A stretch of DNA of 64,000 nucleotides, taken from the NCBI GenBank assembly GCA_052327205.1, contig CM126205.1, positions 302,374,001 through 302,438,000 on the forward strand. The letters are read 5' to 3'. This stretch comes from Somniosus microcephalus (lineage: Eukaryota). The notes beneath the pieces were generated by a model, which saw nothing but the letters and a program-made list of their open reading frames with translations, had not been told where the DNA came from and ran no database searches. Both the position numbers and the translations under genes were made by a program. Position 1 is the stretch's first letter; the number at the start of each line of letters is the position of its first letter. Below are positions 31,509 to 64,000 of the stretch, in pieces.

Positions 31509-34084
31509 CTGCTCTGCATCCATTGTTTTTTATCCTTAATATAAAGAACTTTGAAATGTCTTCTTGGACATAAGAAGCATGGTAAAAGTACATGTTTTTG
31601 TTGTTCTCTTTCTTACACATCGTTGGCTAGCAGTACCATGTAATGCTTCAAAATATCTGGCATATGTGTTTGGTAGGCATTATGAAGAAATGTAACAAAA
31701 ATTAAATAGTCAGTTAAACTAATATTAATCAATAATTGTTCATAATGAATCAGCTAGCACTCAATCACTAATCATCAAATGTCCTGATATGATCATAGTA
31801 CTCCTTACATACTTCAATAGCTCTCACCTATTAAGAGTTTCTCCTCTCTAAGTCAATTTTTTTATGATAATGAGCAATCATCTCAACAGAACCTAAGCTT
31901 TGATCCATATTAATTGTCTTGATCTTCAAAGACAAAGTCCCCACTTATTTTAGATGAATTTTACATTTTTTTTAAAGAATAATATGGAAATTAGTGCTAG
32001 TAATTAATTTTTTATTATGCGTCTCAAGTTTTGATAAGTGCAAGTTGATAACTGCATCTAGAATTCATTTCCAAATTTAATTAGGGAAAGCAGCACAAGA
32101 CAAAAATGTTCAGAGGCTATAGATTAAAGGCTATGACTTAAACCAAAACCTAATTTATACAGATAAACAGTAAAGTTTTAACACACTGTTTCATAGAGTT
32201 GTCAGCCTCAAAGAGTTGAGTGCCAGAATAACAGAGCATTTTTATTTAACCACATAAATGCTGGTGGAGAGCATGTTACTGCATTACAGAAAGCTCCAGA
32301 GTGTATATTCTTCATGATCTCTATTTGGCTTGTTTGTGAGGGCCAGATTTTTTTTTTTAAAAGCTTATTAACTAATAACACATGGTTCTTTCAATTTCAA
32401 ATAAAAATATAATTAGAAAAAATCATGTAGACAAACAGCAGTTAATGGAACAGTATAGTAAAATACGATATCTTAGTCCTTGCAGTTGGCTTGTACACAA
32501 TTAATCACACAGCTTATGTTTGGTCTGGAGTGCACAAGTCTTTGAAAAAATAATTGTATTTATCATGGGCTAGCAGTTTGAGAAGATGGTAGAATGTCTG
32601 CTTCGATACCAGCTGTTTATGGGTTTGAATCACGGCATTCGTCACCTCCAGTTTCAACTATTGATAGTTTATTCAGTTCAAAACCCTAAATATGTACCTC
32701 AAATCTTATTTCCAAAATAAATGTGCTATCCCGCTGTCAAGTAAACTTTACCAGTGGATGGTATCATAAGTGGAACATATAGCACAAGGAACATGTTGTG
32801 GATGTTATTAATGGATAAATCCACTGGGAGCTGGAGCAACATCAATTTGACAATTTTGCCTAGGAATTTAGAAATTCGAGCATAAAAGGAGGCCATTCAG
32901 CCTATCGCACCCATGCTGGTGTTAGCTCTTCCACTAGAGCTGTCTACTCTACTCCCATTTCCCTGCCCTATCTTCATATCCTTTTATTATATACTTGCTT
33001 TTCTAAAACTTATCCAATTCGCTTTTAAATCCTGTCATAAGCTCTGCCTGAATAGCCATTTTGATTTTAGATATTCCATGTTGCAATAACTCTTTGTATG
33101 AAAAAATGTTCTTCGAACTTCAGCTTCATTCATGTAACGATAATTGAGTCTATATCCCCTTTGTTATTAACCTGCCAACCAATGGAAACAATCATTTATT
33201 ATTTACTCTCCAAAAGCTTTCGTAATCTTAAAACCCTTCACCACAGGGCTATAGAGAGAGAGCAGGGGAATGGGACTAATTGGATAGCTCTTTCAAAGAG
33301 CCAACACAGACACGATAGGCCGGCGGTCCCTTTCTGTGCTGTATGATTCCATGATTCTTTCCTTAAACTTATTGGTTCCAGTAAAATACCCAATTTTTCA
33401 ACCTGTTCCATGGGATTCTTCCTATAACATTCAACAGACCAACTGTGACTAACCAATGTCTTGCATAAATTCAACATCACTTCCTTGCTTTTATATTCGA
33501 TGCCCCTATGTATAAAACCCAGAATCTCATTTTACTTTTCTATGACCTTTTCTACCCGCATACTCCTAATTTTTAAAGTTCTATGGGCTAGATTTTCAGT
33601 TGCTTGCGCCAGCAGTTAGCGCCTTAAGAGAAGTGATTTCCGGGCGCTATGCGTGTAGCGCCCGGGCGCAGCGCAGTTTGCGCCCCGCCCCAAATTAAGT
33701 TGCCCGTTAGCGCCGGCGCAAAGTTTAGCGCCCGCCCGGATGCGCGCGCAGAAAATGACGTCACATCCTCGTGCAACGCCCTTTGGCCGCCCCGATTGCA
33801 AACTTCAGTCGGACCGCCCCATTGTGCGGCGGGCGGCCGGAGCGTTTGGAAAAAGGAACGCAACACAACCAGCGCGGGCCCCGGGGGGCGCTAATTAAAG
33901 GGAACGTCCTCTCCAGTATAAAGGCCATCCATTATTTCAGAAAACAGTCTTGTGCAACGCATTTCTGGAGACACAACAAGGAGGATAGCTAACTGGTTTC
34001 AAGCAGCAAGAGCCAGGTATTTTTGGACTCAGGCAACAGCGCTGCAAGTGGCCATTTGGAAATTAGAGTGTTTGCCAGGATTTG

Positions 34085-35242
34085 ATGGGGGTTGCATGGG
34101 GTGCCAACGCGGAGCTGCAGCTCCATGTCCGTAGGGCTCGCAGACGTATTGTGAGAGGGGCAGCCCTGGCTAGAGGCAGAGGGGGCTACAGGCGTCGGCC
34201 ACGTAGGCCTTACCCAGTCAGGCTATACCGCCAGCAGCGCTCCTACCTAAACATGAGTGCCGCGCGATGTGTTAAAAGGCTCCGATTCCGGAAGGGGGTG
34301 ATTGCAGAGATCTGCCACCTGCTTCGCCGAGATCTGCGGCCAAAGCTCAGGTGCAGGACGTCTCTGTCGGTGGAAGTGAAGGTGACAGTGGCATTGAACT
34401 TCTATGCCACCGGCTCCTTCCAATACGCTGCTGGGGACATAGCAAACATCTCCCAGTACGGCGCGCATCGCTGCATCCGCCAGGTGACCGAAGCACTGTT
34501 CAGAAGGAGAAGCCAATTCATCTCCTTCCCCATGGCCCTGGAGAGCCAGCATCAGCGCGCATTGGGATTTTCCAGACTCGGGGAATTCCCCTTGGTGCAG
34601 GGCGCCATTGACTGTACGCATGTGGCTTTGCGGGCCCCTCTGGAGCATGGCGAGCAGTATCGCAACAGGAAGGGCTACCATTCTCTGAATGTGCAGCTGG
34701 TCTGTGACCACAAGCAGCGCATCATGGCAGTCAATGCCAGCTTCCCAGGCAGCAGCCACGATGCCTTTATCCTGCGGCAGAGTACTGTGCATGACATGTT
34801 CCAGGCACAGCCTCCCCCAAGAGGATGGCTACTCGGGGACAAAGGCTATCCTTTGTGCACCTGGCTCATGACCCCGCTCCGCGCGCCCAGGACCGCTGCT
34901 GAAGAGGCCTACAACGAGAGCCATCAAACCACCCGCAACATCATCGAGCTAACTATTGGGGTCCTCAAGCAGCGGTTCCGCTGCCTTGATCGCTCCGGAG
35001 GAGCTCTCCAGTATTCGCCGGACCGGGTCTCCCAATTTGTGGTGGTTTGCTGCATGCTACACAACCTGGCTATCCGCAGGACTCAGGCACTGCCACCTGA
35101 CGTTGGACCAGCACCTCAGGAGGAGGAGCAGGAGGAGCATGAGGAGGAGGAGGAGGAGGAGGAGGAGCAGGAGTACGTTCCCAGGAGGGAGCGACCAGGG
35201 CCAAGGGCCGCACGACGCCACCTTATTACACGGTACTTCTAA
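34085..35242 (+). CDS. Harbinger DDE transposase (HARBI1-like), 385 aa, intronless
   Basis: Motifs GAIDCTH, YRNRKGYHSLNVQLVCD, PGSSHD, GDKGYP, RNIIE..GVLKQRFRCL and CCMLHN, with an acidic C-terminal tail. No stops. Confidence 0.95.
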   Translation: MGVAWGANAELQLHVRRARRRIVRGAALARGRGGYRRRPRRPYPVRLYRQQRSYLNMSAARCVKRLRFRKGVIAEICHLLRRDLRPKLRCRTSLSVEVKVTVALNFYATGSFQYAAGDIANISQYGAHRCIRQVTEALFRRRSQFISFPMALESQHQRALGFSRLGEFPLVQGAIDCTHVALRAPLEHGEQYRNRKGYHSLNVQLVCDHKQRIMAVNASFPGSSHDAFILRQSTVHDMFQAQPPPRGWLLGDKGYPLCTWLMTPLRAPRTAAEEAYNESHQTTRNIIELTIGVLKQRFRCLDRSGGALQYSPDRVSQFVVVCCMLHNLAIRRTQALPPDVGPAPQEEEQEEHEEEEEEEEEQEYVPRRERPGPRAARRHLITRYF

Positions 35243-35605
35243 GCCCCCTGTCAGGGAATGGCCAGGGGCCATGAGGGAAGATGAATGCAGCCGCTCCGCA
35301 AGCCCTCAGCCGGCGAAGCCAACAAACACTAAGAAGAACAACCATGGAGACTGCATGAATAAAGATAATTTTTTATTAAACAAAAATGAAAAGCCCTTCC
35401 CACATGAATCCCCAAAAACAATAAACGGGCCCCACAAAAAGCCCAACAAACGACTCACTCCCACAAACTGGGGAGGAGCCACTCCACCTTTATTGAAACC
35501 GGGCCTCAACGTCGGCCTAACGCAAAAAAAAAGCCCTCCAAAAGCACAACCATGGGCAAAATAAAGATGGCCACCGCCATATTAAAGGAAAGCTGGCCAC
35601 ACCCT

Positions 35606-37708
35606 CTACTGAGTGGCCCGCGAGGGCGAGACCTTGGCCAGCATTTTGCCTCCCCTGCCCTGCCTGCTGCTCCTTCGCAAGCTCTGCCCAGTGGCTGCTG
35701 CGAGGCTGGGGGAAGGCGCCTGAGGCTCAGATGCCCTTCCGCCAGATGCCGCTGGGGGGTGGCCTACACGGCGTTTGGGCCTCGAGGGGCCGTCTCCTGA
35801 GTGGCGCGCCTGAGCCTGGCCACCATCAGCTGCAGCCGCTTGCCCTTGACGCCCCAGAGGGGGAATGGCGGCGACGGATGGTGCAATGTGGGCCAGCTGG
35901 CGTCTGGGATGCGCTGGCTGGTGCTGTGGCGCGGTGGCACTCGGCCGGGCCCGCACTGCAGGATCCGCAGCAATCAGCCGACGGCCGGCTTGCTGGGATG
36001 GTCCAGCGCGGCGCCTGCCCTGGCGATGCCTGCCTGAGACAGCGCGTGTGGCAGCAGTGAGTGGCCCTCTGGTCCTGGTGTGCGCGCGCATCACATCCGC
36101 CAGGGTCTTGACGGCATCAGTTAGCATGCGGCCAGTCGCGGCAGTTGCTGCCCCGAACTCGCGCACACTGGTCGCCAGCGACTCGATGGCCTCAGGCATG
36201 CGCCCCACCACGCTCATGAGCTCCGTGTGGCGCCGGTCCGAGTCGTCGGCCATCTGATCGAGCTTCCGCACCTCCTCCGAAGTGAAGGTGTCCGGACTGG
36301 AGTCGCGACTCTCCCGCTGGGGAGGAGGGGGCCGAACTAGGGGACCCTTGCCGCGTTGGTGACGGCGAGTGTGCCGAGCAGCAGCACTCCCCTCTGATCC
36401 TTCCCCCCTTTGGGGGGAAGGCCGCGGGCCACGCGCACGGCTGCTGGGTGGCTGGACGCCACTGGTCCCAGAAGCTGCATTGCCCTGCGACAGTTCCTCC
36501 AGGCACTCGTCCAGTGAGGAGGTGTCGAGCATTTCCTCCTCTCCTGCGGGACGTGACTGTTCCCCCGAAGGTCCGGCTTGCTCCTCCTCCTCCTCCTGGT
36601 TGGAGGTGCTGTCACTGGCAGCCTCAGGGTCCTGGTCGTCACCAGCTGAAAGCAGGAATGCACAAGAGTAGCTTCAGAGTGAGGAGACGGCGTCAGCGAG
36701 GGAGTTAGGACTGGTGGGATTCAGCGCATTGGTGGGACAGTGGCAAAGGAGGTAGCTCGGATGGGCCAGTGCGACGCGAGAGGGCCAAAAGGCGAGGTCC
36801 TTACCATTGCCGGGCAGTGGAGGGTCGGATACACCGCACGCTGTGGGGACAATCACACGTGCTCCCATGAGCACACACACGCGCTCCTCCAGCCGAGTGA
36901 GCTTCTGCAGCTTGGCGCGGCCACCCCTGGCACGGGCCTGGCGATTAAACGCTACTTTAGCCTGCAAGAGAAAGGACGGGCTGTAAGGGCGCAGTGAAGC
37001 CCTGATGTAGTGTGCACTGCCTCCCATGGTGGAATAGCTTGGACAGAGTGAAGCCCTGATGTAGTGTGCACTGCCTCCCATGGTGGAATAGCTTGGACAG
37101 AGTGAAGCCCTGATGTAGTGTGCACTGCCTCCCATGGTGGAATAGCTTGGACAGAGTGAAGCCCTGATGTAGTGTGCACTGCCTCCCATGGTGGAATAGC
37201 TTGGACAGAGTGAAGCCCTGATGTAGTGTGCACTGCCTCCCATGGTGGAATAGCTTGGACAGAGTGAAGCCCTGATGTAGTGTGCACTGCCTCCCATGGT
37301 GGAATAGCTTGGCCAAAGTGTAGAGTGCCGAATGGCCATTTGATGCTCATGACTGTCCCAATGCTGCTGGCTGAGGGCTGGCCAAAAGGACTTTCAGGTC
37401 CCTTTGCCCATCATGTCAGGTGTACATGCAAGAATGAGGAGGAGACTGGAAAGGCTACTCACCCTCACAATCCTGGTCAGATCGTTGTACTTCTTACGGC
37501 ATTGTGTGTGGGTCCTGGGGGCCTCGCCGGTGAATGTCACCCTCTGGGCGATCTGCTTCCAGGCTTTGGTGTAGTCGTGGTGGGTTGGATTCCTCCCACT
37601 GTCTGGAAACAAGATCTTGCGCCTCACCTCCAGAGCTGTGAGCATGATGTCCAGATCACCCTCTGAGAAGCGCAGGGCACGCTGACGGGCCTTCTCTGGC
37701 GTTGCCAT
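35606..37708 (-). CDS. Harbinger Myb/SANT-like DNA-binding protein (NAIF1-like); exons 37708-37463, 36961-36805, 36645-35606; 480 aa
   Basis: Exon 1 encodes RFSEGDL..AWKQIA..RTHTQCRKKYNDL. Introns are canonical (GTGAGT..TTGCAG, GTAAG..TTTCAG). The exon lengths 246+157+1040 nt join in frame without stops. Confidence 0.88.
36993..37312. repeat. Tandem array of about 6 identical 54-bp units in intron 1 of the Myb gene
   Basis: AGTGAAGCCCTGATGTAGTGTGCACTGCCTCCCATGGTGGAATAGCTTGGACAG starting at 36993, 37047, 37101, 37155, 37209 and 37263. Confidence 0.97.
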
Positions 37709-38234
37709 GACTCCCTGGGGCTGAGCAGTAGTGTTGAGGCCTCTTTGCAAGGCTGCAGTGTGCAGGGCGTGGCAGCAGACTAATTCGTCCCTTCCCCCTT
37801 TAAGAGCTGGTCGGCACCACGGGGTCTGCTGTCAGTGCAAAAATGACCGCACCCGTGCTGCGCCCCGCCTGGGCGCTATCCCTCTGGACCGCCGGCTTAG
37901 CGCCTAAAGAGAGTAGTGGAACGCCTCTTTTAGCGCTCCACCAACCTCTTAGGGCGAAGCCACTGAATTCCCGGCAACGGGGCGCTACTTTGGGGCGGGC
38001 GCTAACTTCGGGCGGGCGCTAAAGCTAGCGCCCCAAAACTGCCTAAACTGAAAATCTAGCCCTATATATCTGCACGCAAGATCTCTTTGTTCATCCACTC
38101 TTTCTTTCTTTTGATGTTCTTTTTCCAAAAATTTAATAATTGGCATTTCTCTGCACAGAACTGCATCTGCCATCTATTTGTCCACTTGGCCACCCTGCCC
38201 TTGTGCTCCTACAATCTCCGATAGTCTTCCTCAC

Positions 38235-38800
38235 AGTTTGCTATGCATCTTATATAGAAACATAGAAGATAGGAGCAGGAGTAGGCCATTCGGCCCCGCG
38301 AGCCTGCTCCGCCATTCAATGAGATCATGGCTGATCATCCAAACTCATTACCCTGTCCCTGCCTTCTCCCCATATCCCTTGATCCCTTTAGCCTTAAGAA
38401 ATATATCTAACTCCTTCTTGAATATATTTAATGAATTGGCCTCAACTGCCTTCTGTGGTGGAGAATTCCACAGGTTCACCACTCTCTGGGTGAAGAAATT
38501 CCTCCTCATCTCTGTCCGAAATGGCTTAGCACTTATCTTTAGACTGTGACCCCTGGTTTTGGACTCCCTCGCCATCGGGAACATCCTTCCTGCATCTAGT
38601 CTGTCTAGTCCTGTTAGAATTTTATAAGTTTCAATGAGATCCCCTCTCATTCTTCTAAACTCCAGCGAGTATAAGCCCAATCGACCCAATTTCTCCTTAT
38701 ACGTCATTCCTGCCATCCCAGGTATCAGTCTGGTGAATCTTCGCTGCACTCCCTCCATGGCAAGAACATCCTTCCTCAGATAAGGTGACCAAAACTGCAC
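38235..38800 (-). mobile_element. CR1 3' fragment
   Basis: 150-aa ORF of the CR1 RT C-terminus plus 3' stem-loop. Close to the copies at 26033 and 30210. Confidence 0.92.
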
Positions 38801-38961
38801 ACAATACCAAACTGCTTAGTTTGGTATTGTCAACAGATTTCAATATCGTTCCCTTTTCATCTATGTCCAAGTTATTTATATCAATGAAAAACAAAATACC
38901 ATGCACAGCCCGACTCATTTCCCATAATTTATTTAAAAGTTATATATATATGAACTTAAAA

Positions 38962-39575
38962 ACCATTAGGAAGGCAAATGGTATGCTGACCTTCATTACA
39001 AGAGGATTTGAGTACAGGGGTAAAGAAGTCTTACTCCAATTATATAGGGCCTTGGTGAGACCATACCTGGAGTACTGTGTACAATTTTGGTCTCCTTACC
39101 TAAGGAAGGATATATTTGCCATAGAGGGAGTGCAACGAAGGTTCACGAGATTGATTCCTGGGATGGCGGGACTGTCGTATGAGAAGAGATTGAGTAAACT
39201 AGGCCCGTATTCTCTTGAATTCAGAAGAATGAGAGGGGATCTCATTGAAGCATACAAAATTATTACAGGGCTTGATAGGATGGATGCTGGGAGAATGTTT
39301 TCCTTAGCTGGGGAGTCTAGAACCAAGGGTCACAGCCTCAAGATAAAGAGTAGGCCATTCAGGACTGAGATGAGAAGAAATTTCTTCACACAGAGGGTGG
39401 TGAATCTTTGGAATTCTCTACCCCAGAGGGCTGTGGAGGCTCAATCATTGGGTATATTCAAAATGGAAGTCGATAGATTTCTGACTAGTAAGGGCATCAG
39501 GGGACATGGCGATAGGGCCGGTGAATAGAGTTGAGGCAGAAGATCAGCCATGATCTCATTGAATGGTGGAGCATG
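38962..39575 (+). mobile_element. CR1 3' fragment
   Basis: [36 protein letters not shown]. Confidence 0.92.
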
Positions 39576-39959
39576 TTCTTAAGTATGATTTTAAAGGTTC
39601 TTGACATTAGGGATTCATTACTTAATTGAACCTAGTTTGCTATCAGTCATTGAGCTCAGGACACTGCTTAAAAGAAAGAAAACTATTTGCGTGAACAATC
39701 TAAATTTGAAATTGTTAGATTTAAATGCATGTTCCATACTTCTGTCATAACAGCTGCAAGTGGCATTGAGGTAAACACTCAAGGTCTCAAATGTCCACCT
39801 CAGCTTTGCGATTTCTTAACTAGGCGTAAAGGTCTATTGGTGTGGGGGAGGGGTGGTGAGGAACTGGGGAAAAAAATATGCTTAAGAAACCATGATGACC
39901 AGGGATAGTAGTCCAGATTTGCAGTATTGACACTGTAAATTTCTCAATGGGATTACCTT

Positions 39960-40272
39960 ATTGATGGTGCAAGGACTAGGGGACACAGATTTAAGGTTTT
40001 GGGCAAGAGATACAGGGGGGATGTGAGGAAAAACTTTTTTACGCAGCGAGTGGCGAGGACCTGGAACTCGCTGCTGACGGAAGTGGTGGAAGCGGAGACA
40101 CTCAATGTTTTCAATGGGAGATTGGATAGGCACTTGAGGGAAATAAACTTACAGGGCTACGGGGATAGAGCGGGGGAATGGGACTGACTGGATTGCTCCA
40201 TAGAGAGCCGGCATGGACTCGATGGGCCGAATGGCCTCCTTCTGTGCCGTTATGACTCTATGACTCTATGAC
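39960..40272 (+). mobile_element. CR1 3' fragment (different subfamily)
   Basis: RKNFFTQRVARTWNSL, with an (ATGACTCT)n tail. Confidence 0.85.
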
Positions 40273-41361
40273 CTAGCCTCTGCTTGAAAAATCACTTTCT
40301 GATGTGAACCAGTGGTAATGGTAAACCACTTGAGTGGCTTTAATTTTCCATAGTTCCCTTTAAATAGCAGGACTATGTCCTTAGTGAGGCATAACTGCAA
40401 CTATAAGAGCTCACTGTAGTGAGGAGTTCAGGGACCTGTATTTATTGTCATAACTGCATCTGGCTGAGCTCTCTCCATTTGCACAATTGGTAAATACAAT
40501 GTTCAATATCATTAAGGTGATACATTTTGCACGAAGCACACTTTTAGTTCTACCAAGTCCCTTAAGCTCCATTAAGTCAAGGGGACCTGATGTATTTATG
40601 GGGTGTTTTATACAGATTGCGAAATACAAAATGTCCCCATGCCATTACAGAGCTTCAAGAATCGCACTAAAAAAAAATACTCCATGTAAAATGTAAACCC
40701 TTATGAATGGGCAACTGAATAAGACGGGCCAACAAAGTCTTAGGTTAAAGCCACGGTCAGTGTTAAATTATGTCACCTCGGCTGGAGTCGAAACAGGAAC
40801 GCTACACTTGGCTTCACCTGGGGAAGAAGGAAATGACTTAGAATTTCTGCTGCCAATGCTCATCCAGTAACACCTACTGGAAAATATTTTTTTGTGAGTT
40901 GTTGGGTAAAAACAGGGTCTGCCTCGGCAGTCACAGCAACTACAAATGAATGGCCTACTGGCACTCACTGTTCAAGCTTATACATGATAAATGGCCAGTT
41001 GCTTGAAGTGCTGGAGGCCAGTGCCTTTGGAAGCAGACCCCAGCATCAGTCAGCCCTTAAGAAAAGAGGGGAAACATAGAGAAAGGGAAAGGGAAAAGAA
41101 AAAAGAAAATTGTATCTAGCCTACATTTCAGTGTTTGGCTGAATGTTCCTCTTGCCTTGTACACCAGTTGTATTACTGAACAAGAGTACTGGGCATTAAA
41201 GAACAGACAATGGCTGTCTGGCTAACTCCATTGTTTCCATCCAGCACATACAATTTGTCCTGCTGTGTATTTTATACAATCTATTTAATCTCCTCAGAGA
41301 TAAGTAAAACTTGGGAAATGATAAAACTCTGTGAAATTTGCCCCTGACTCCTTAAGGTAAG

Positions 41362-41700
41362 TAGCAGCTTGGCTCAGTTGGTAGCATTCTCACCTCTGAG
41401 CCAGAAGATTGTGGGTTTAATTAAGCCCAACTCCAGGATTGGAGTCCGCATCTAGATTGATACTTTAGTGCAGTACCGGGGGTGTGTTGAATTGTTGGAG
41501 GTGCCTATTTAGACAGATGTAAAAAAAATTCCATGGCACTATTTGAAAAAGAACAAGGAGTTATTCCAGTGTCCTGCCAACATTCCTCCCAAACCAAAAA
41601 TAATTAACTGGGTTTTCATCTCATTTGTTGTTTGCACAATATTGGTGTGTGCAATTGGCTGTAAGGTTTGTCTACTTAACAAAAGTGACTGCACTTTACA
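41362..41700 (+). mobile_element. Decayed DeuSINE/SacSINE1-like SINE
   Basis: tRNA head TGGCTCAGTTGG..TCTGAGCCAGAAG and the Deu-domain remnants GGAGGTGCC and CCATGGCACTATTTG. Confidence 0.7.
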
Positions 41701-42381
41701 ACTGCATTCCACAACGTAGCACAGGAACCAATGTGCTCCACAGGAGTATTTAATTATCAATATTTGCACTTAACCTTAGAACCTACAGTCCCAATCTTAC
41801 CCAGGTAGGTATCCACCTCTGTATAAAAGGTGTTGGCAAAGATGGCGCCAACTGCTTTTGATGGGGAACATTCAAGATATGGGCCTAGAAATTCAGTTGC
41901 GTCCGCCAGCCGTTAGCGCCATAAGAGGGGTAGATTTCCAGCGCTAGGCACTTAGCGCCCGGGCGCAGGCCGATCTGCGCCTACGCCCAACTTCAGTTGA
42001 CATTTAGCGCCGGCGCAAAGTGTTTGCGCCCGCTCAGCTGCGCGCGCAGCTTATGACGTCATTTCGTCGTGCAACGCTGTTTGTGCGCCCCAAACCGGAA
42101 ATTCAGTGGCGCCCGTCCAATGTGGGCGTGGCGCTGTTAAGAACTGTGAAGTGGAACGCAGCACAGGCCCTGCGGGCCTCAGGGAGCGCTAATTAAAGGG
42201 CACTTACACTGAACTATAAAGGCCAGCCATTTTGCTGCAATGACTTTAGTGCTTTGGATTTCTGGACAGAGACCAAGGAACAGACCTTCCTGATTTGGGA
42301 CAACATAGGAGAGGTATTTTTGGCTTCTGGCCAGAGCTTGGAACTTTCACTCATTGTGATTTCACTGTTTGCAAGTTTATT

Positions 42382-43523
42382 ATGGGGGCTGCATGGGGTT
42401 CCAACCCTCAGTTCCAGCATTATGTGCGAAGGGCTCGCAGACGCTGTGTGAGAGGGCCAGCCATGCCTAGACGCAGAGGGGCCATCAGGCGTCGGCAACG
42501 TAGGCCTTACCCACTCAGGGAATACCGGCAGCAGGTGTCCTATCTCACCATGACGCCGCGCATTGTGTTAAGAGGCTGCGCTTCAGAAGGGAGGTGGTTG
42601 CAGAGATCTGCCAGCTGCTTCACAGAGATCTGCGTCCACAGCTGATGTGCAGGACGTCTCTGTCGGTGGAAGTGAAGGTCACGGTGGCTCTGAACTTTTA
42701 TGCAAGCGGATCATTCCAAGCCGCTGCTGGGGACATAGCGAACATTTCCCAGTTTGCCGTGCATCGCTGCATCCGGCAGGTCACCGATGCCCTTTTCGCA
42801 AGGAGACACCAATTCATCTCCTTCCCCATGACCCTAGAGAGGCAGGAGCAGCGTGCAGTCGGATTTGCCAGGATCGCCGACTTCCCCATGGTGCAGGGCG
42901 CCATTGACTGCACGCATGTGGCTATGCGGGCACCTATCGACAATGCCGAGGATTACCGCAACCGGAAGGGCTACCATTCCCTCAATGTACAGCTGGTGTG
43001 TGACCACAGGCAGCGCATCCTAGCTGTCAATGCCCGCTTTCCAGGAAGCAGCCACGATGCATTTATCCTGCGCCAGACTACTGTGGCTGACATGTTCGAG
43101 GCACAGCCTCCACCAAGGGGATGGCTTATTGGGGACAAGGGCTACCCTTTGTGTACATGGCTCATGACCCCGCTCCGCGTGCCCAGGACCCCTGCGGAGG
43201 AGGCATACAACGAAGGCCATCAAGCCACAAGGAACATCATAGAGCAAACGATTGGCGTCCTCAAGCAACGGTTCCGCTGCCTGGATCGTTCCGGCGGATC
43301 TCTACAGTATTCGCCGGATAGAGTCTCCCAGTTCGTCGTCGTTTGCTGCATGCTGCACAACCTGGCTATCCGCAGGACTCAGGCACTGCCACCTCACGTT
43401 CAACCACCACCTCAGGAGGACGAGCAGGAGGACCATGAGGAGGAGGAGGAGGAGTACCAGCCCAGGAGGGAGCCACATGGTCCAAGGGCCGTCCGCCGGC
43501 AGCTTATTGAACGGCACTTCTAG
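42382..43523 (+). pseudogene. Harbinger transposase with a single 1-nt frameshift near 42554
   Basis: MGAAWG..RPYPLREYRQQVSYLTM in one frame and the rest (GAIDCTH, GDKGYP, RNIIE) in another. ATGAC-GCCGCG here versus ATGAGTGCCGCG in copy A. Confidence 0.9.
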
Positions 43524-43773
43524 GCCCCCTGTCAGGGAATGGCTTGTGGCAATGAACGCACCTGAATGCAGCCGCTCCGCAAGCCCTCAGCCGGTTAACG
43601 CAACAACCACTTGAAACATGACACCTGGACAAGCTGAATAAATAAAAAGCTTTATTTAACAAACTCAGGGCCCTTCCCACATGAAACAGAGAAACAGACA
43701 AGACCCCCAAAAAACAGTCAAAAACATATCTCACTCCCACAACCTGGGGAGGAATAACAAAACTTGTCAATAA

Positions 43774-43930
43774 CATTTGCCTTCATCCTCGGCCTTCCCA
43801 AAATAAGCCCCCCCCCCTCCAGAACACAACCACCCCCATATAAAAAAACATTTGCCTTCATCTTCGGCCTTCCCAAAATAAGCCCCCCCCCCCCCCCCAG
43901 AACACAAACACCCCCATATAAAAAAAACAG
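43774..43930. repeat. Tandem duplication (two units of about 75 bp) in the intergenic/3' UTR region of copy B
   Basis: CATTTGCCTTCATC.TCGGCCTTCCCAAAATAAG(C)nAGAACACAA.CACCCCCATATAAAAAAA occurs twice. Confidence 0.9.
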
Positions 43931-43943
43931 TTGGCAACACACT

Positions 43944-45992
43944 CTACTTGGTGTGCCGAGAGGGCGAGTCCTTGTGCAGGCTTCTCCGGCCCCTGCCCGA
44001 CCTGTTGCTCCGCCTCAACCTGGGCCCTGTGGGTGTGGCAAGGCTGGGGGAAGGCTCCTGAGGGGCACACTGCGTGATGGCAGATGCCCTTGGGGGTCGG
44101 CCTAGACGAGGTCCGGCCCTGGAGGGGCCGGCTGCTGACTGCTGCAGTTGTGGCTGGGCAGCATCAGTCTCTGCATCAGCTCGTCGCATCTTGGCTGGGG
44201 GAGTGGCAGTGGCGGCTGCAGCAATGGGGGCAAGCTGGCTGATGCCAGGCGCTCGCTGGTCGCCAGAGACACTGGCACTCGGCCGGGCTGGCACTGCAGC
44301 AAGCGCAGCAATCTGGTGGAGGCCAGACCGCTGTGCTGCAGCAGGGCGGCGGGTGCCCTGGCGATGCTTCCGTGACACCGCGAGTGTGGCAGAAGTGAGT
44401 GCCCGAACTGCCCTGGTCTGTGCCTGCATCAGATCAGCCAGTGTCTGCACGGCACCACTCATGAACTCACGACTCGCGTCCTGTGCTGCCGCGAGTTGGT
44501 CGACACCCCTGGCTTGTGCTGCCGTGAGTTGGTCGACACCCCTGGCCTGTGAGTCCCCGAAAGCGGCCACACTATGAGCCAGGGACTCAATGGCCTGAGG
44601 CATCTGTCCCACAACCCCCATGAACTCGTTGTGGCGCCGCTCCGAGGCCGCGGACATTTCATCAAGGTGGCGCACCTCCTGGGCGAGGACCGTCTCCGGA
44701 CTGGAGGGCGGACTCTCCCTCTGGGGAGAAGGCCGCCGAGCTGCCCGACCCTTCCCGCATGCCTGGACGCCACTGGGCCCAGCAACTGCCCTCCCCTGCA
44801 ACACTTCCCCCCTCTGGGGAGAAGGCAGCCGTGCTGCCCGACCCTTCCCGCGTGCCTGGACGCCACTGGGCCCAGCAACTGCCCTCCCCTGCAACACTTC
44901 CCCCCTCTGGGGAGAAGGCAGCCGTGCTGCCCGACCCTTCCCGCGTGCCTGGACGCCACTGGGCCCAGGAGCTACACCCCCCTGCAACACTTCCCCCTGG
45001 CTCTCCTCCAGGCAAGACGTCTCCCCTCCATTGCCATCCCCTGACGCGGATGAGGGTTCCCCCGAAGTGCCGCCTTCCTCTTGGTCCTCGTCGTCCTCCT
45101 CTTCCGAGGGACTGGCACTCTCAGCTTCATGGACCTCCTCCTCACCAGCTGAAAGCAGGAAGGCACAAGAGTAGCTTTAGAGTGAGGACAGGGCGTCAGC
45201 GAGGGAGGCATGAGTGGTGGCATTATGCGCATTGGTCGGACAGTGGCAAAGGATGTAGATCTGAAGCGCAAGGGGAACGAGAGAGGTCCAAACGGTCATG
45301 TCCTTACCATTGGGGCCCAGCACAGGGTCCGCATCACCAATAGCAACGGGGCCAACCACCCGGCCACGCATGAGTCGAGCCACGCGCTCCTCCAGCTCAC
45401 TGAGCTCCTGGAACTGGGCACGGCCTCCCCCGGTGACATTCCTGCTCTTCATATTCTGGGCCAGCTTGGCCTGCAAGAGAAAGGACGGCCTCTAAGTACA
45501 GTGTGGTGCCCTGTTGTTGTGTGCACTGCCTCCCATGGTGGAATAGCTTGGCCAGTGTGGTGCCCTGTTGTTGTGTGCACTGCCTCCCATGGTCGAATAG
45601 CTTGGCCAGTGTGTAAAGTGCAGAAAGTGCTATTGATGATCATGCCAGTGCCATAGCTGCGGGAGGAGGGATGGCCATTAGGCCTTTGAGGTCCCTTTGT
45701 CCATAATGTGAGGTGCACATGCAAGGATGAGGAGGACACTGGAAAGTCTACTCACCTTGACCAACCGAGTGAGGTCGTTGTACTTCTTGCGGCATTGGTC
45801 ACCAGTCCTGGGGACATCGCTGGTGGCTGACACCCTGTGGGCGATTTCCCTCCAGGCTCTCCTGAACTGCCTCCTGGGAGCCTTCTTGCCACTGTCCGGG
45901 CACAAGATCTCTCTTCTCTTTTCCAAACCCTTAAGCAGCACCCACAAAGCAGGCTCTGAGAAGCGCTGCGCTCGTTCACGGGCCTTCTGCAT
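43944..45992 (-). CDS. Harbinger Myb/SANT-like protein; exons 45992-45756, 45470-45308, 45148-43944; 534 aa
   Basis: RFSEPAL..AWREIA..RTGDQCRKKYNDL. Same splice sites and phases as copy A. 237+163+1205 nt join in frame. Confidence 0.88.
44713..44996 (-). repeat. Three in-frame 90-bp coding repeats in Myb exon 3
   Basis: A 30-aa unit resembling LQGRAVAGPSGVQARGKGRAARLPSPQRGEV occurs three times. Confidence 0.92.
45499..45612. repeat. Two 54-bp tandem units in intron 1, homologous to the array in copy A
   Basis: CAGTGTGGTGCCCTGTTGTTGTGTGCACTGCCTCCCATGGTGGAATAGCTTGGC at 45499 and 45553. Confidence 0.95.
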
Positions 45993-47281
45993 GGCTTCAG
46001 GCGCTATTTGGGTCCACCAGCAGTGTTGAGGCCTAGCTGCAGGGCTCCACTATCCAGGGCGTGGCAGCAGACAAAGTCGACCCTTCCCCCTTTAAGAGCT
46101 GGCCGGCGTCAGGGTGTCTGCTGTCAATCAAAACATGACCGCATCTGCGCTGCGCCCGGCCTCGGCGTTATCAGTCCGCACCGCCGGCTTAGCGCCTAAA
46201 GATAGGAGTGCAACGCCAGTTTCAGTGCTCGCCCAAACTCCTTGGCCAAATCTACTGAATTTCGGCGAAGTGGCCTACACGTTCCGGCGGGCGCTAACTT
46301 TAGCGACCGCCCGACTTTAGCGCCCCAAAAGTGGCGCGACGGAATTTCTAGGCCATGTACTATAGGGAAAACAAAATCTAACTTCTAGTCCCACCTTAGG
46401 CTTGTTAATTTTGTACTCGTCTTCTAATGCTTTGATCATAGTTTAAGTTAAATAACTGAAAGTAAAATATTCAAATTCACAGTTTACAGCTGATACCAGA
46501 AAGTATTCAGCTGCTACTTAGCTTGTGGCTACTTTCTGCCAGCAATGGGGCCTGCTATGCACAAATCTGAATATTCTTCCCATGATATTCAAGTTATTAT
46601 TTTCACTCAACCACTAGTGCTGTTAAAACCAACACAGATATATGAGAACCTTAACTTTTCAGTTCCCATCCAGGAATATATGGAAGGAATGAGAAAAACC
46701 AGAATCAAACCAAATGTGAACTGCAGTGTAAATCCCCAAAGAGGACACATTGTCCAATTTCCAGCTCTCAAAGCATTAAAAAAACATTTTGAATTCTTCT
46801 CACCTCTAGAGACTCATATGACACAAACATCAGCCTAGTTTGGTTTCGATTTTGCATATCCATATTAAATGTTTGACTCTGCCACACTCAGCATGGGGTT
46901 TCTCATAAGAGATTCCATATGGTTACTTAAAGCTAAATGAACCATTATGTCAGGTTGCCCATATACAAACTGTACTGATGTTCACAGCCATTGTTATTTA
47001 CAACTCTATGCTAAGCTAATAACTGGGGTCTTAGAAATTTAATTCTGTTCTCCCACTGATTAGAGAATACAATCTAGGCCATTCTTTAGCATACGGCTTT
47101 TCATACTATCTCAATTCTACACAGTAGCTCTGACAAGGCTAAATTGTCCTACTCTTCACAGTTTTTTTGTGTATTTTATTTATGTTTTCTCCTCTTCACC
47201 TCGTTAGACTTACCTATACCACATAACATTCCTTGGTCTAGAAGGCATTTTGAGAAAGCACTGGCCTTATCTTGGTCTATT

Positions 47282-49194: not shown

Positions 49195-49837
49195 GGAGGT
49201 GAAATTCCCCTCGTTTGCGTTTCCGGTGGGAGGTTAGCGGCGGTGCTACCGGGTATCGCCCTACTCTACTGCGCCCGAATATCATGACATCATCTCCGGG
49301 CGCAGCGCCCCGGTAGCGCCTCGGCAGAAAAATTCGCACTCGCGACCCCCGCAGCAGCGCCAGGCGATGTTACCAACTGCTACAGGGGTCGCGAACAGTG
49401 AGGCCGGCCGCTCACGGGGCGCAACTTAAAGGCGCGGCGGGTGGCCGGCTGGCCCCCCAAAAAGCCGATCTTTTTAAAAAAAATTATTTTCGGCCACCGG
49501 TTGCGGCGTCTGTGCTGCGATCGCTCAGCCCAGCGCTCTGCTGATTGCGCGGCACTCCCGCTTTCCCAATGGTCCAGAAATCTACAATGAAACCGACAGA
49601 GCTTGCAGCATGGGGCCCTTCCCTTTAATGCAGGGAAGAGCCCCTGCAACCGGATCGGGACATTCCCCGCCTCTTGCTCTCCAAGAGGCAAGCAGAGTGC
49701 TTGATTTAGCTCCACTTCCCTCTTGGAGCAGAAAGAGGAAATTTAACAAATGTTTGAAAAGGTTAGTGCCTGGCGCTGACTTTCCAAACATTTTTCACTT
49801 GGCACCCCGAACGGCCCTCATGGGGAATTTCTCCCCC
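49195..49837. mobile_element. Non-autonomous Harbinger-type element (MITE)
   Basis: 16-bp TIR GGAGGTGAAATTCCCC / GGGGAATTTCTCCCCC (2 mismatches), TSD AAT on both sides, CpG-rich with TAGCGCC-like motifs. Confidence 0.85.
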
Positions 49838-56415: not shown

Positions 56416-56770
56416 CAGGAAACTCTTTTTTATCCGGCACCGACGGGACCGGCGTGGTGCCGGTTGATCAAAAAGTCCGGATTACAGAGAGGTATACTTA
56501 CCAAGGTACGAGAGCCCCGTACACGGCCACAGGTGCAGGAGCCCCGGTTACACAGCACTTGTGCAGGAGTCCCGGTTACACGGCCACAGATCCAGGAGTC
56601 CCTGTTGCATGGCCACAGGTGCAGGAACCCAGGTTACATGGCCACAGATCCAGGAACCCCGGTTACACGGCCACTAATATATAGTAAAATTTAACTGAAC
56701 CTACTCCTGAATTTTGCTGGTTAAGAGAGATTTCTGGATATTTAGGTGCCGGTTAAAAGAGAGTTTCCTG
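56416..56770. mobile_element. Tc1/mariner (Tigger/pogo-like) MITE with an internal minisatellite, inside an old minus-strand CR1
   Basis: TA|CAGGAAACTCTTTTTTATCCGGCACC ... GGTGCCGGTTAAAAGAGAGTTTCCTG|TA. About six copies of a roughly 29-bp unit (AGGAGCCCCGGTTACACGGCCACAGGTGC) at 56510-56673. Confidence 0.85.
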
Positions 56771-59367
56771 TATATACAGCAAGAACAAATGTGGACCCAG
56801 CATTGACCTCTGGGATACACCACTTGCAACCCTTCTCCAATATGAGCAGCACCCATTTACTTCTTTGTTTTCTGACCATAAACCAAACCAACTATCTATC
56901 CATATTGGTACATTTTCTCTTTCAGCATATACTTGAATTTTTCTAACAAGCCTCCTGTAAGACATGTGATCGAACACCTTCTGGAAATTTATCTACACTA
57001 CATCTACTGTATTCCCTTTATCGACTAAATCAGTCACCTCTTCAAATAACCAAATTAAATTTGCTAAACAGAACTTACCTTTAACAAATGCATGTTGGCT
57101 GTCCTTGATTAGCCTAGGCAGCTCTAAATGATTACTAATTTTATTTCAAATTATGGATTTGAAAAGGATGTTTTTAACCTGTCTACCTGGTGGGAATGAG
57201 ACGGGTGAGTGGTTAAATGGTAGACTGGTGCTTCCCGCTGCATTCCCGGTTGCTATTTTAACTTCTGGGTTTTCAGCAGCATGGGGGCCGCTTGCTATAG
57301 GCAGGCCTCGTTAATATCTAAAAGTAAGGGTCCGATGATGATCCTGAAGCAATATTAACTATCTGCCGCACCGGTGACACTCAACGCTGGGCATCCCAGT
57401 GAAACCTGGCAGGCAGGGTCAGTCAAAAGAAACCCAAGTAAGTTTTAAATTTCAATTTTTTTTAAGGGTTCCCGCTGGACCAGGAGGATCAGACACCAAG
57501 GCCGGAATTTTCCCTACTGAGTCGGGTCGGGTGCGTGCGGCCCACGTAACAGGTCGATGTATTGATCAGAGCGCCTTTAGGGTAATGGCCCTTATTAAAA
57601 CAGGCATGCGCATTTCCCGGCCCTATTAAATGGTGCGGGTCTGATGACATCATCGATTACTAATTTCCAGCGGTGATATTTAAAGTAGCCTTGGGCACAT
57701 TGCATTTGAAGGTAGATGCAGAGGTGTGGAGGGAGTATTGGAGAGGAGTGTGTTGTTGCTGAGAAATAGAAAAATGAGTTCACAAAGACAGAGGGCTGCA
57801 CCCCACTTTTTGGATGAATCCCTATATATTCTTCTGGAGGGAGTCAGAGCACGCAGGGAGGTCCTCTTACCTGCTGATGGGTGGAAGAGACATCCCCAAG
57901 AAACCAAAAGGACATAGCTCCAAATTGCTGAGGAGGTCAGCAGCAGAGATGTCATCAGGAGGACATGGGTGCAGTGCCAGAAGCTCTTCAATGATCTGAT
58001 GAGATCAGGAAAGGTGAGTGCAAAGCCACACTCACCTTCATTCTTTTTTTAATTCATTTATGGGGTGTGGGCATCGCAGGCAAGGCCAGCATTTATTGCC
58101 CATCCCTAATTGCCCTTGAGAAGTTCTTGATGTGCCTGTCACCACATCCCCATCACTCTGCCTTCCCAAGCCTACTTCTGCACATTATTACTCATACCAA
58201 CATACCTTGCACGTCCACCCATCCCTCTCTCTATGCACATACTTACATCCCCATCTGACTAACCACCCCTCACACTCACCCTCATCCTAATGTAATCATA
58301 CCAAGTAACATCAAAGAAAGAGGCCATTTGACATTGGCATCACACTACCTTATAGTCACCCTCTACAGATGTAACCCACACATTCCTTACACTTATGCCA
58401 TCACTCTCACTCAAACGTCTCGTCTTTCCCTCCTTGCAGGAGAAGAGAGCCAACAACAACAGGGAGAGAGAGAGAACCGGAGGTGGCCCTCCAGTCTTCA
58501 GTACTTTGACTGTAGCAGAGGAAGTGGCCCTGGCGGTGTCAAGAGTTGCAGAGCTGCTGGCGGTGGGAGACAGAGCGGGGGGGACCTCTCAGCAACCTAG
58601 TGACAGAATTACATCTCATACAGCCACATGGCATACAGCAGTCACTCATATGTTGACTGATGTCAGCAGCCAGTGAATGTTCATCATGTGCATAATGGCA
58701 TCGTTACCCATTCTTAATATAACATTTCTAAATCTTCTTTTTACTCTCCCACAGGTCCATCAAGAGCCCCCCACCCCACCATCCAAGCGGAGGAGGAAGA
58801 CGACTCCTCATAGGAACCTCCAGCCTCTGAGGGCGCACCATCAGCAGACCCAAGTGCACCCAGCACCAGCGCAGATACGCACACCTCGGTGGGTTCTATG
58901 CGAGATAGAGTAGTGTTGTCACCTGGTGTCTCACACTTCACAAGTGAGCAACAGTAGATGGTGGAGACATGGACAGCAGTGGAGACTCCTTGCCGGAGGG
59001 TGCAGGACGCTCCAAGCTCTGCTTAGTTGCATGCAGGCGCTGAACCTCGGGAGCCATCAAGAAAGAGGGTGATCCTGGAGGGGCATAAGAAATGCAGGAG
59101 GCTATGGCAGGTTTTGCAGCCACGATGTCTGCAAATGTGCAGAGAATGGAGGAGTCCATCTCCAACATGAGCCCCACCATGTCACAGGCGATGGCGATGA
59201 TATGCTCTTCCATGGAAAGGATGGCCACCTGCATGGAGCAGCTAATGCGCCACTCACATGAGCACATGCTAGCTATGGAGAACAGAAGGCAGAGGCTCAT
59301 AGATCTCCTATCAAGGAGGGATCTAAATATAGACTTGGGTCCTCATGGCCCCACTGCTGTGCAGCAA

Positions 59368-59784
59368 GGTGCCAGGGTTAAGGACATCTCCTCTGGGCTG
59401 GAAAGAAACTTGCAGTGGGAGGGGGTGGATCCAGTTGTCGTGGTCCATGTTGGTACAAACGACGTAGATAGGACTAGGAAGCCGGTTCTGTTAAAGGAGT
59501 ATGAGCAGCTAGGGGTCAAATTAAAAAACAGAACCTCAAGGGTAATAATCTCTGGATTATTACCTGAGCCACGAGCGAATTTGGCTAGGGCAAATAAAAT
59601 TAGACAGTTAAATGCGTGGCTCAAAGACTGGTGTGGGAGAAATGGGTTTTGCTTCCTGGGACACTGGCACCAGTACTGGGGCAGGAGGGAGCTGTTCCAT
59701 TGGGATGGGCTTCACTTGGCCAGTGCTGGGACTAGAGTCCTGGCAGATCATATAACTAGGGCTGTAGAGAGGGCTTTAAACTAA
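59368..59784 (+). CDS. CR1 ORF1 C-terminal SGNH esterase domain (partial, fused in frame to upstream Harbinger sequence)
   Basis: GARVKD, VHVGTND and DGLHL correspond to SGNH hydrolase blocks II, III and V. Confidence 0.9.
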   Translation, partial: GARVKDISSGLERNLQWEGVDPVVVVHVGTNDVDRTRKPVLLKEYEQLGVKLKNRTSRVIISGLLPEPRANLARANKIRQLNAWLKDWCGRNGFCFLGHWHQYWGRRELFHWDGLHLASAGTRVLADHITRAVERALN

Positions 59785-59822
59785 CTAGTGGGGGGGAGGT
59801 TCCTAGAGAGCAAATAATAAAA

Positions 59823-62774: not shown

Positions 62775-63663
62775 GTCTAGGTTCGGATCGGACATGGCCC
62801 TGTGGGTAGCGGAGCGGGCCCAGGGGCCGTGTAGCCTGATCCTGCTCCTATTTCGTGTGTTTAATTCTGTTAGATTCAGGAGATGGTTCTGTGATAGTGG
62901 ATTGGCGGTTAGGATCAGATCAGCCATGATCTTATTGAATGGCGGAGCAGGCTCGAGGGGCCAATTGGCCTACTCCTGCTCCTATTTCTTATGTTCTTAT
63001 GTTCTTATGTTCTCCAGTTCCTTGCTAGCAGGGAAGTGCGAGTGACCCATGAGAGGGATGATGGTGAGAGGGAACATGGAAGTTGGGGCTTCTCTCAAAG
63101 CACTTCCACTTCTCCCCATTGCCTCCCCCTCACCCCATTCAGAGCCCCAGATGCTTCCTCGAATCGCGATGGCTGAATCTGCCTCTGCACAGTCGCAGGA
63201 GGAGCAGACTTTGGCGGGGCCATCACAGGCTCCAAAACACAGAGGACATCCACTAAAAGCGTCAAAGCATTTGCAGCAGGGAAGTGAGCAGCCTGCCTCT
63301 ACCTCTTCTGAAGCCATAGGGGGTGCACCTCGTAGAAGCACACATAAAAGAAAAATGACGCAAAAGTAGATGCACAAGGGTAAGCACATGAGTGTATAAA
63401 GGAGTGTTATTGTTAAGGTTCTGTTACTGTTATCACACATATAAAAGTATTTATTTTCACCACTTTCGAGTCCTGCCCATTTTTGGCTGCTACTTTGAAA
63501 GTGGCTTTGTGAGTTGCAGTGAATGGTGAGACATAATGTAACCTCCAGCAATGGGGGTCAGTGTGAAAGGAATGGCTTGTTCATTGTAGGGATGCTTTAT
63601 GGTGTTGTTGGGGGTGGGAACTGGGCACAGCATGTGGCAGCCATATGGGTGCAATGCAGGAAG

Positions 63664-64000
63664 TTAAGTAAATCTGGCCATGATGAGGCCATCCCTGACC
63701 TCCCGGGCAACAATGTGCTCCGCTGCTGGTGCCATCTAGACCTCAGGTTCCTCCTGCTCCTCCTCCTTGTCTTCCAGCTGATGCTCCTCCTTCTCTTCCT
63801 CTGAAGAGGCTGTGCGCTCTGCACTTTGCTCCTCATGCTGCTCTAATCCTCATTGTTGCACCCTATTGTGCAGGGTGTAGCAGACGACGATGATTCTGGA
63901 TACCCTGGCTGGTGCATACTGATGGGCTCCTCCAGATCTGTCACAGCATCTGAAGCGCATCTTCAGCATGCCTATTGCTTGCTCTATGACACATCTGGTG
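63664..64000 (-). pseudogene. Harbinger transposase C-terminus (copy D), degenerate
   Basis: The minus strand reads TRCVIEQAIGMLKMRFRCCDRSGGAHQYAPARVSRIIVVCYTLHN, then an acidic tract, then REVRDGLIMARFT*. Confidence 0.88.

What the first reader, a model, noticed from the sequence alone, without database searches (positions are those of the whole stretch)
36993..37312. 54-bp intronic repeat with a 33-nt core conserved between two diverged Harbingers
Seen: intron 1 of the Myb gene holds about 6 identical 54-bp units in A and 2 units in B (45499-45612), just upstream of the 3' splice site. The units differ between elements except for GTGTGCACTGCCTCCCATGGTGGAATAGCTTGG, which is identical (one mismatch in B unit 2), while flanking intron, TIRs and even coding sequence have diverged. 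Each array is homogenised within its own element. On the transcribed strand GCAGUG can pair with a downstream CACUG in both. Inference: a selected, copy-number-variable cis-element or small intronic RNA (protein-binding site, splicing regulator or processed RNA) that is not part of the standard Harbinger model. The transcribed strand reads AGGCAGUG, like the miR-34/449 5' end, which may be coincidence.
Basis: partly seen in the sequence, partly recalled or inferred. Interest (0 to 1): 0.7.

Follow-up and report, generated by a model that had tools for sequence, protein, structure and literature searches.

The report
Variable repeat in constrained transposon intron
Thousands of copies of a jumping gene carry a 51–54-letter repeat, present 1 to 11 or more times, inside an intron that changes unusually slowly, and the repeat likely holds a short signal needed at least once to process the jumping gene's helper message, with the number of copies probably mattering little.

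Summary
The arrays are real: 6 units in element A, 2 in B. They are one case of a family-wide minisatellite in intron 1 of the Myb gene of a very large, recently amplified Harbinger clade (17,043 donor anchors; 75,655 core 15-mers). Intron length is 177+54n with n=1–11; near-identical copies carry 1–10 units. The 33-nt core is largely a pairwise artefact: exact in 4 of 37 last units and no more conserved than the rest of the intron (0.095 vs 0.124, p≈0.7–0.8). The whole intron, however, evolves at about half the synonymous rate and keeps its length. In families with 60–75% transposase identity the array persists (51 or 54 bp), and a ~20-nt part is the best-kept internal window (0.79 vs 0.53, p=0.034). 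A zero-unit junction occurs 0 times against 16,212, yet Myb-less derivatives spread without the unit. There is no hairpin, Rfam match or reading frame. Most likely a slippage-driven repeat on a motif serving Myb mRNA splicing or expression; not a microRNA. Function untested.

The parts
33585..38062 (.). Harbinger element A, 4478 bp, 15-bp terminal inverted repeats, TAT target-site duplication
   Evidence: ends printed; over 150 genome copies encode an identical Myb exon 1
34085..35242 (+). Transposase ORF of A, 385 aa, DDE_Tnp_4
   Evidence: E 1.4e-39
37463..37708 (-). Myb gene exon 1 (82 aa, Myb_DNA-bind_5)
   Evidence: E 3.6e-11
36962..37462 (-). Myb intron 1 of A (predicted; 501 nt = 177 + 6 x 54)
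   Evidence: GT..AG ends, open spliced ORF, length rule; splicing not seen in reads
36993..37320 (.). 54-bp tandem array of A, 6.1 units
37018..37038 (-). ~20-nt motif kept in distant families, here in the unit nearest the acceptor; includes the G-run at -64 to -59 from the 3' splice site (37020-37025) and recurs every 54 bp
36805..36961 (-). Myb exon 2 (157 nt)
36646..36804 (-). Myb intron 2 (predicted; 159 nt, no array, also slow-evolving and fixed in length)
35606..36645 (-). Myb exon 3 to the stop codon
41882..46354 (.). Harbinger element B, ATG target-site duplication
45471..45755 (-). Myb intron 1 of B (predicted; 285 nt = 177 + 2 x 54)
45499..45613 (.). 54-bp tandem array of B, 2.1 units

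Best explanation
This is a hypervariable 51-54-bp minisatellite inside a slow-evolving, fixed-length intron of the Harbinger Myb gene, and each unit carries a ~20-nt motif that likely helps the Myb message get spliced, so that at least one unit would be needed while extra units would be mostly tolerated slippage products. Shown: the array, its fast length change and lineage-wise homogenisation; constraint on both introns; retention of array and motif in distant families; absence of a zero-unit junction; mobility of Myb-less derivatives without the unit. Inferred: slippage or unequal exchange as the engine; selection acting through Myb protein supply rather than on the DNA substrate; splicing (a G-run at -64 plus CA-rich flanks) as the job, which is only modestly favoured over a DNA-level intronic enhancer.
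For: Length rule 177+54n, n=1-11, in 38 of 42 elements picked by an anchor outside the core; the other 4 had partial units or small deletions and none lacked a unit. Thirteen copies sharing one flanking haplotype carry 1,1,1,1,2,4,5,5,5,5,6,7,10 units. Between-subfamily difference per site: intron 1 outside the unit 0.124, intron 2 0.150, transposase 4-fold 0.227, Myb exon 2 0.281; intron 1 vs 4-fold MWU p=1e-4, non-CpG sites only p=0.007. In distant families one-unit intron 1 is 229-231 nt in 12 of 12 extracted, intron 2 157-159 nt; intron 2 has 0-1 gaps against A while element ends have 6-22. Best internal 21-nt window near-vs-far is the motif, 0.79 vs interior mean 0.53, permutation p=0.034. 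G-run at -62 to -64 in 19 of 20 short-intron elements, inside the -30 to -80 zone where G-rich motifs act as splicing enhancers in human minigenes (PMC2481429, passages). Zero-unit junction 0 vs 16,212. Nine distinct internally deleted elements with both ends lack the Myb gene and unit, so the unit is not required in cis.
Against: Among close subfamilies the core is not significantly more conserved than the rest of the intron (33-mer Fisher p=0.83; 17-mer p=0.16), and two other intron blocks score 0.76 and 0.71; for 13- and 33-nt windows the top score is not significant (p=0.16). Intron 1 is CpG-poor (3% of sites vs 23%), and on non-CpG sites the Fisher test against 4-fold sites is not significant (p=0.13). 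No spliced joint reached the 5-in-100 listing threshold in two RNA runs, so splicing itself is not shown. The pyrimidine tract looks reasonably strong, unlike the introns in PMC2481429. A lone G-run does not explain the CTATTC/ACCAT half of the motif or the fixed intron length. The missing zero-unit junction may only reflect the rarity of deletion between 7-9-bp repeats. A simple neutral model does not keep arrays alive this long, which argues that copy number is not wholly irrelevant.
Confidence: 0.5

Rival explanations
1. The unit is a DNA-level first-intron enhancer or protein-binding site, multimerised about every five helical turns, and unit number tunes Myb dose, with two or more units favoured in progenitor lineages.
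For: Arrays in 12 of 13 short-intron distant loci although unit length and boundaries changed (54 and 51 bp, both near 5 turns; my arithmetic). Only 8 of 58 elements have one unit, mode 2. A neutral birth-death model scaled on the young subfamily predicts 97-99% single-unit copies plus a few giant arrays after 50-100 such periods, which is not seen. The motif holds the palindrome CCATGG.
Against: No binding factor identified; single-unit copies occur among the youngest insertions (4 of 30) and 3 of 6 in one subfamily; unequal exchange between the many copies could re-seed arrays neutrally; no expression data by unit number.
Confidence: 0.22
2. Wholly neutral: an ordinary minisatellite that arose between short direct repeats in a CpG-poor, slowly mutating intron; apparent conservation is mutation-rate bias plus picking the best window.
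For: Core not different from the rest of the intron; CpG-poor intron; the same family has other tandem repeats of 33 and 93 bp in Myb exon 3; the long-intron clade has no array in 12 of 12 introns extracted.
Against: Intron lengths fixed within 1-2 nt and almost gap-free where 4-fold identity has fallen to 0.46-0.61 and element ends carry 6-22 gaps; difference from 4-fold sites persists on non-CpG sites by MWU; a 13-nt piece of the motif is shared with two long-intron elements, 0 of 40 shuffles each (only 2 of 20 pairs tested).
Confidence: 0.2
3. The unit is processed into a small intronic RNA (miR-34/449-like or structured).
For: The Myb strand of close subfamilies reads AGGCAGUG (sequence; the likeness to miR-34/449 is recalled).
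Against: Folding z-scores -0.4 to +1.1 for 8 of 8 strands; no Rfam match over the array at E<=10; consensus folds no better than column shuffles, covariation near zero; the 8-mer is not kept in distant families.
Confidence: 0.04
4. The ATG in a Kozak-like context inside the motif starts a Myb-less isoform or a repeat peptide.
For: The frame is open through the array into exon 2 in subfamily A, L180 and L182.
Against: In-frame stops or frame offsets in most others; no intron-1 frame is open in more than 3 of 20 sequences; no 3-base periodicity.
Confidence: 0.03
5. Local gene conversion between A and B, or an assembly artefact.
For: A and B lie 4 kb apart.
Against: Each unit matches its own subfamily elsewhere in the genome; 19,029 exact 33-mers; 54-back joints in raw reads and contigs.
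Confidence: 0.01

Closest known systems
PIF/Harbinger DNA transposons (Harbinger3_DR of zebrafish; Ping/Pong/mPing) - PMC2836001 passages, PMC9179366 passages
   Same: Two genes (DDE transposase plus Myb-like ORF1), terminal inverted repeats, 3-bp target duplication, short non-autonomous derivatives.
   Different: The passages seen describe no tandem array or conserved motif in a Myb intron ('tandem' occurs 0 times in PMC9179366 and PMC13668399). The primary Harbinger3_DR paper was not held.
Minisatellites carried inside transposable elements (e.g. the minisatellite MITE of PMC4596501, seen as search listing and start of abstract only)
   Same: Variable-number head-to-tail units inside a mobile element, homogenised within lineages.
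   Different: Here the array sits in a predicted spliceosomal intron of an autonomous element, persists across families whose unit length and borders changed, and was never seen at zero.
G-rich intronic splicing enhancers upstream of the pyrimidine tract (PMC2481429 passages)
   Same: G-run at -64, within the -30 to -80 zone; C-rich intron.
   Different: Those act on weak pyrimidine tracts in human introns; here the tract looks fairly strong, the host is not a mammal, and no function was tested.
miR-34/449 family (recalled)
   Same: 8-nt AGGCAGUG likeness only.
   Different: No hairpin, no Rfam match, 8-mer not conserved.

Membership tests
PIF/Harbinger transposon (host element) | DDE transposase of DDE_Tnp_4 type | tested here: met
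   E 1.4e-39
PIF/Harbinger transposon (host element) | Second gene with Myb/SANT-like domain | tested here: met
PIF/Harbinger transposon (host element) | Terminal inverted repeats and 3-bp target-site duplication | tested here: met
   A: TAT, B: ATG
PIF/Harbinger transposon (host element) | Both proteins needed for transposition | not testable with these tools
   known from PMC2836001 passages
Minisatellite / VNTR | Head-to-tail units of 10-100 bp | tested here: met
Minisatellite / VNTR | Copy number changes faster than point mutation | tested here: met
   1-10 units among copies with near-identical flanks
Minisatellite / VNTR | Concerted evolution of units | tested here: met
   subfamily-specific variants shared by all units of an array
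G-run intronic splicing enhancer | G triplet within -30 to -80 of the 3' splice site | tested here: met
   -62 to -64 in 19 of 20
G-run intronic splicing enhancer | Intron is actually spliced at these sites | tested here: inconclusive
   ORF and splice-site conservation support it; no spliced joint listed in two RNA runs
G-run intronic splicing enhancer | Mutation lowers splicing; bound by an hnRNP | not testable with these tools
   needs a minigene and pull-down
miR-34/449 microRNA | Precursor hairpin | tested here: not met
miR-34/449 microRNA | Match to the family model | tested here: not met
miR-34/449 microRNA | Discrete ~22-nt reads | not testable with these tools
   no small-RNA run was offered
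Cis-element required for Harbinger mobilisation | Retained in amplified non-autonomous derivatives | tested here: not met
   9 distinct Myb-less elements with both ends; 412 hits of an internal marker of the short family, 3 of them checked

The most novel reading that the evidence does not exclude
A vertebrate DNA-transposon clade has kept, since its transposases were only about 60% alike, a mutable repeat dial in its helper gene: unit number sets how much spliced Myb message is made, arrays of two or more are selected in progenitor lineages, and each new copy re-draws its own setting within a few generations.
Probability: 0.15. Interest if true: 0.65.

Novelty: new variant of a known kind. 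Interest (0 to 1): 0.36.

Why it matters
Transposon introns are usually treated as neutral. Here both introns of the Myb gene evolve more slowly than synonymous sites and far more slowly than the Myb exons, keep their length to within 1-2 nt, and yet tolerate whole 51-54-bp units. If the motif proves to control splicing or expression, it is a handle on how Harbinger helper-protein supply is regulated, with a natural allelic series of 1 to 11+ units in tens of thousands of copies. If it is neutral, it remains a large source of hypervariable minisatellite loci (over 75,000 units) in this genome.

Tried and rejected
Rfam scan of 33500-46500: 6 weak matches, none on the array. Single-strand folds and alignment folds of both introns on both strands: no structure beyond shuffles; the 3' UTR rows have a broken per-sequence energy and were ignored. 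Coding in any of six frames, and an isoform from the internal ATG: rejected. A recombination hotspot at the array: four-gamete incompatibility 0.26 across it vs 0.22-0.44 at 7 control cuts, uninformative because homoplasy is high. Profile search of short-intron alignment against 12 long introns: 1 hit, E 0.31, so deep homology with that clade rests on two 13-nt matches only; an ancient ~56-bp period in long introns was not clear. Sequencing-run search: no RNA holder listed. Two RNA runs of a related species label gave reads on both strands and no listed splice joint; they probably reflect host transcripts running through copies, and the higher depth over introns is confounded by repeat units and by cross-mapping of subfamilies. 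Likenesses to MRE, EBF, ZNF143, PRDM9 or fish ACAC enhancer motifs were considered from recall only and not used; a search for the last found no paper. Literature searches listed no paper describing such an array; the library lacks most subscription journals and Repbase, and no supplements were read. Earlier scan notes: none by sequence or words.

Full report
Observation. TRF reports 54-bp arrays at 36993-37320 (6.1 copies) and 45499-45613 (2.1 copies). The 33-mer occurs 8 times in the window, 0 in 100 shuffles. The arrays lie in two full-length Harbinger elements, A (33585-38062, TAT duplication) and B (41882-46354, ATG duplication), each with a DDE_Tnp_4 transposase and a convergent Myb_DNA-bind_5 gene. 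Removing two GT-AG introns gives open Myb ORFs in both. The host being a shark or ray is my recall of the flanking retrotransposon tails and the view of earlier AI notes; no call here names it.

Family. The genome (6.4 Gb) holds 19,029 exact 33-mers, 75,655 copies of a 15-nt core (control 1), 17,043 intron-donor anchors and 18,513 units of more distant type, partly overlapping the former. At least 150 copies encode a Myb exon 1 identical to A's (capped). So A and B are two subfamilies of a very large, recently amplified clade, and local conversion is not needed; distances in four blocks of the element are congruent (r=0.91-0.95).

The array is a hypervariable minisatellite. In A, B and 40 elements picked by an anchor outside the core, intron 1 is 177+54n with n=1-11 in 38 of 42; 4 have partial units or small deletions; none lacks a unit. 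From position lists, 58 of 67 pairs gave whole numbers: 8 with one unit, 20 with two, the rest 3-11. Among 30 copies nearly identical to A, n runs from 1 to 10, and 13 sharing one flanking haplotype span that whole range. Units carry subfamily-specific letters throughout an array. Raw RNA reads of a related species label and contigs of two other runs show joints going back 54 bases, so the arrays are not an assembly artefact, though the count of six at this locus was not checked with long reads.

The 33-nt core is mostly a pairwise artefact. I projected 37 full-length copies in 9 subfamilies on A (37 of 61 tried; dropped were inexact arrays, interrupted ends and copies without a long transposase match). 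The exact 33-mer is in 4 of 37 last units. Between-subfamily difference per site is 0.095 for the core and 0.124 for the rest of intron 1 (Fisher p=0.83, MWU p=0.69); 26% of other 33-nt windows in the intron are as conserved. A post hoc 17-mer scores 0.045 (p=0.09-0.16).

The introns as a whole are constrained. Intron 1 (0.124) and intron 2 (0.150) differ less than transposase 4-fold sites (0.227), element ends (0.21-0.24) and Myb exons (0.24-0.28). Intron 1 vs 4-fold: MWU p=1e-4, Fisher p=0.01; on non-CpG sites p=0.007 and 0.13, so low CpG content explains part. Exon 2 between the two introns is the most diverged part, which argues against conversion tracts. No structure, Rfam family or reading frame explains it.

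Deeper families. From 46,107 transposase motif hits I fetched 40 loci not in my earlier lists. Thirteen had a short-intron Myb gene; 12 of them have an array at the same place, of 54 or 51 bp with shifted borders, and 1 has a single unit. Their transposases are 60-75% identical to A's in the seven scored, with 4-fold identity 0.46-0.61. Collapsed to one unit, intron 1 is 229-231 nt in 12 of 12 extracted and intron 2 157-159 nt. Against A, intron 2 has 0-1 gaps, intron 1 has 0-2 in 4 of 6 and 6-7 in 2 of 6 (same net length), and the ends have 6-22. Comparing 9 near with 6 far elements, the best internal 21-nt window is the GCTATTC.ACCATGGG(A/G)GGC motif, 0.79 against an interior mean of 0.53 (permutation p=0.034), followed by blocks at 0.76 and 0.71; with 13- or 33-nt windows the top score is not significant. 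Its G-run sits at -62 to -64 from the acceptor in 19 of 20. A more distant clade with 310-343-nt introns has no array in 12 of 12; two of 20 pairs share a 13-nt piece of the motif beyond shuffles, while a profile search finds nothing significant.

What selection acts on. The precise zero-unit junction occurs 0 times against 16,212 normal array starts; this fits a need for one unit but also rare deletion between 7-9-bp repeats. Of 30 right ends taken in genome order, 4 belong to internally deleted elements without the Myb gene; 20 further stretches, chosen partly to enrich for these and including 2 repeats, gave 5 more. They are 0.7-0.8 kb or 1.4 kb, several with intact target duplications, and an internal marker of the short family has 412 hits (3 checked). 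So the unit is not needed in cis to move; any selection runs through the Myb gene. ORF1/Myb is required for transposition and binds element ends in known systems (PMC2836001, passages).

Mechanism. I commit to a slippage-driven repeat built on a motif that likely supports Myb pre-mRNA splicing (0.5). G-rich motifs 30-80 nt upstream of the acceptor enhance splicing in human minigenes (PMC2481429, passages), but that work concerns weak pyrimidine tracts, and spliced reads were not seen here (9,613 reads laid, both strands, listing threshold 5 in 100). One result pulls towards a role for copy number: a neutral birth-death model scaled on the 4 of 30 single-unit young copies predicts 97-99% single-unit copies after 50-100 such periods, whereas 8 of 58 are seen. 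That needs selection for two or more units or re-seeding by unequal exchange between copies; I could not separate them. Rivals: DNA-level enhancer or dial 0.22, neutral 0.2, small RNA 0.04, internal start 0.03, conversion or artefact 0.01.

Novelty. The element is a standard Harbinger and the array a standard minisatellite; the combination of a clade-wide array that was never seen at zero units and fixed-length, slow introns was not found in searches (listings and starts of abstracts; passages of PMC9179366, PMC13668399, PMC2481429 and PMC2836001; no supplements; the Harbinger3_DR primary paper was not held). New variant of a known kind, interest 0.36.

Noticed in passing
window 36646-36804 and 36962-37462; loci L091-L182: Both Myb introns are more conserved than the Myb exons, whose first and second codon positions (0.24) diverge as fast as transposase synonymous sites (0.23): possible diversifying selection on the Myb protein.
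   Followed up: partly
intron 1 alignment of 37 elements: Lineage-shared variants are transition-poor (9 of 48 in intron 1, 15 of 63 at transposase 4-fold sites) while private variants are about half transitions (21 of 43, 23 of 42); GC-biased conversion or a distinct mutation process may act on active lineages.
   Followed up: partly
window 44480-44551 and 44717-44997; L158, L160, L170, L174, L176, L179, L181: In-frame 33-bp and 93-bp tandem repeats in Myb exon 3; the 33-bp one recurs with variable copy number in distant families.
   Followed up: partly
window 35243-35313: The transposase 3' UTR holds a 32-nt run identical in A and B and is slow-evolving family-wide (0.115).
   Followed up: no
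window about 42550: B's transposase appears frameshifted near codon 57 (1-base gap; protein match starts at residue 58), while its Myb ORF is open.
   Followed up: no
window 57200-64000: A third, distant Harbinger (Myb exon 1 36% identical to A) with the same two-intron layout, no array, and a long retrotransposon-like insertion in exon 3.
   Followed up: partly
L208, L209, L211, L221, L223, L228, L237 (0.7-0.8 kb); L195, L222 (1.4 kb): Two families of non-autonomous derivatives of this clade; L211 has a right end resembling another subfamily, suggesting mosaic ends.
   Followed up: partly
G000:C1:16,547,000-16,654,000: Dense cluster of about ten family copies within ~110 kb, many of subfamily A.
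   Followed up: no
window 49195-49835: A ~640-bp GC-rich element with short inverted ends, possibly another non-autonomous Harbinger.
   Followed up: no
window 56520-56674: Degenerate 29-bp tandem repeat (5.4 copies) inside a short GC-rich insert.
   Followed up: no
L151-L189 long-intron clade: 310-343-nt intron 1 with a very G-poor transcribed strand (10-13% G) and a single G-run cluster near -122 in most members.
   Followed up: partly
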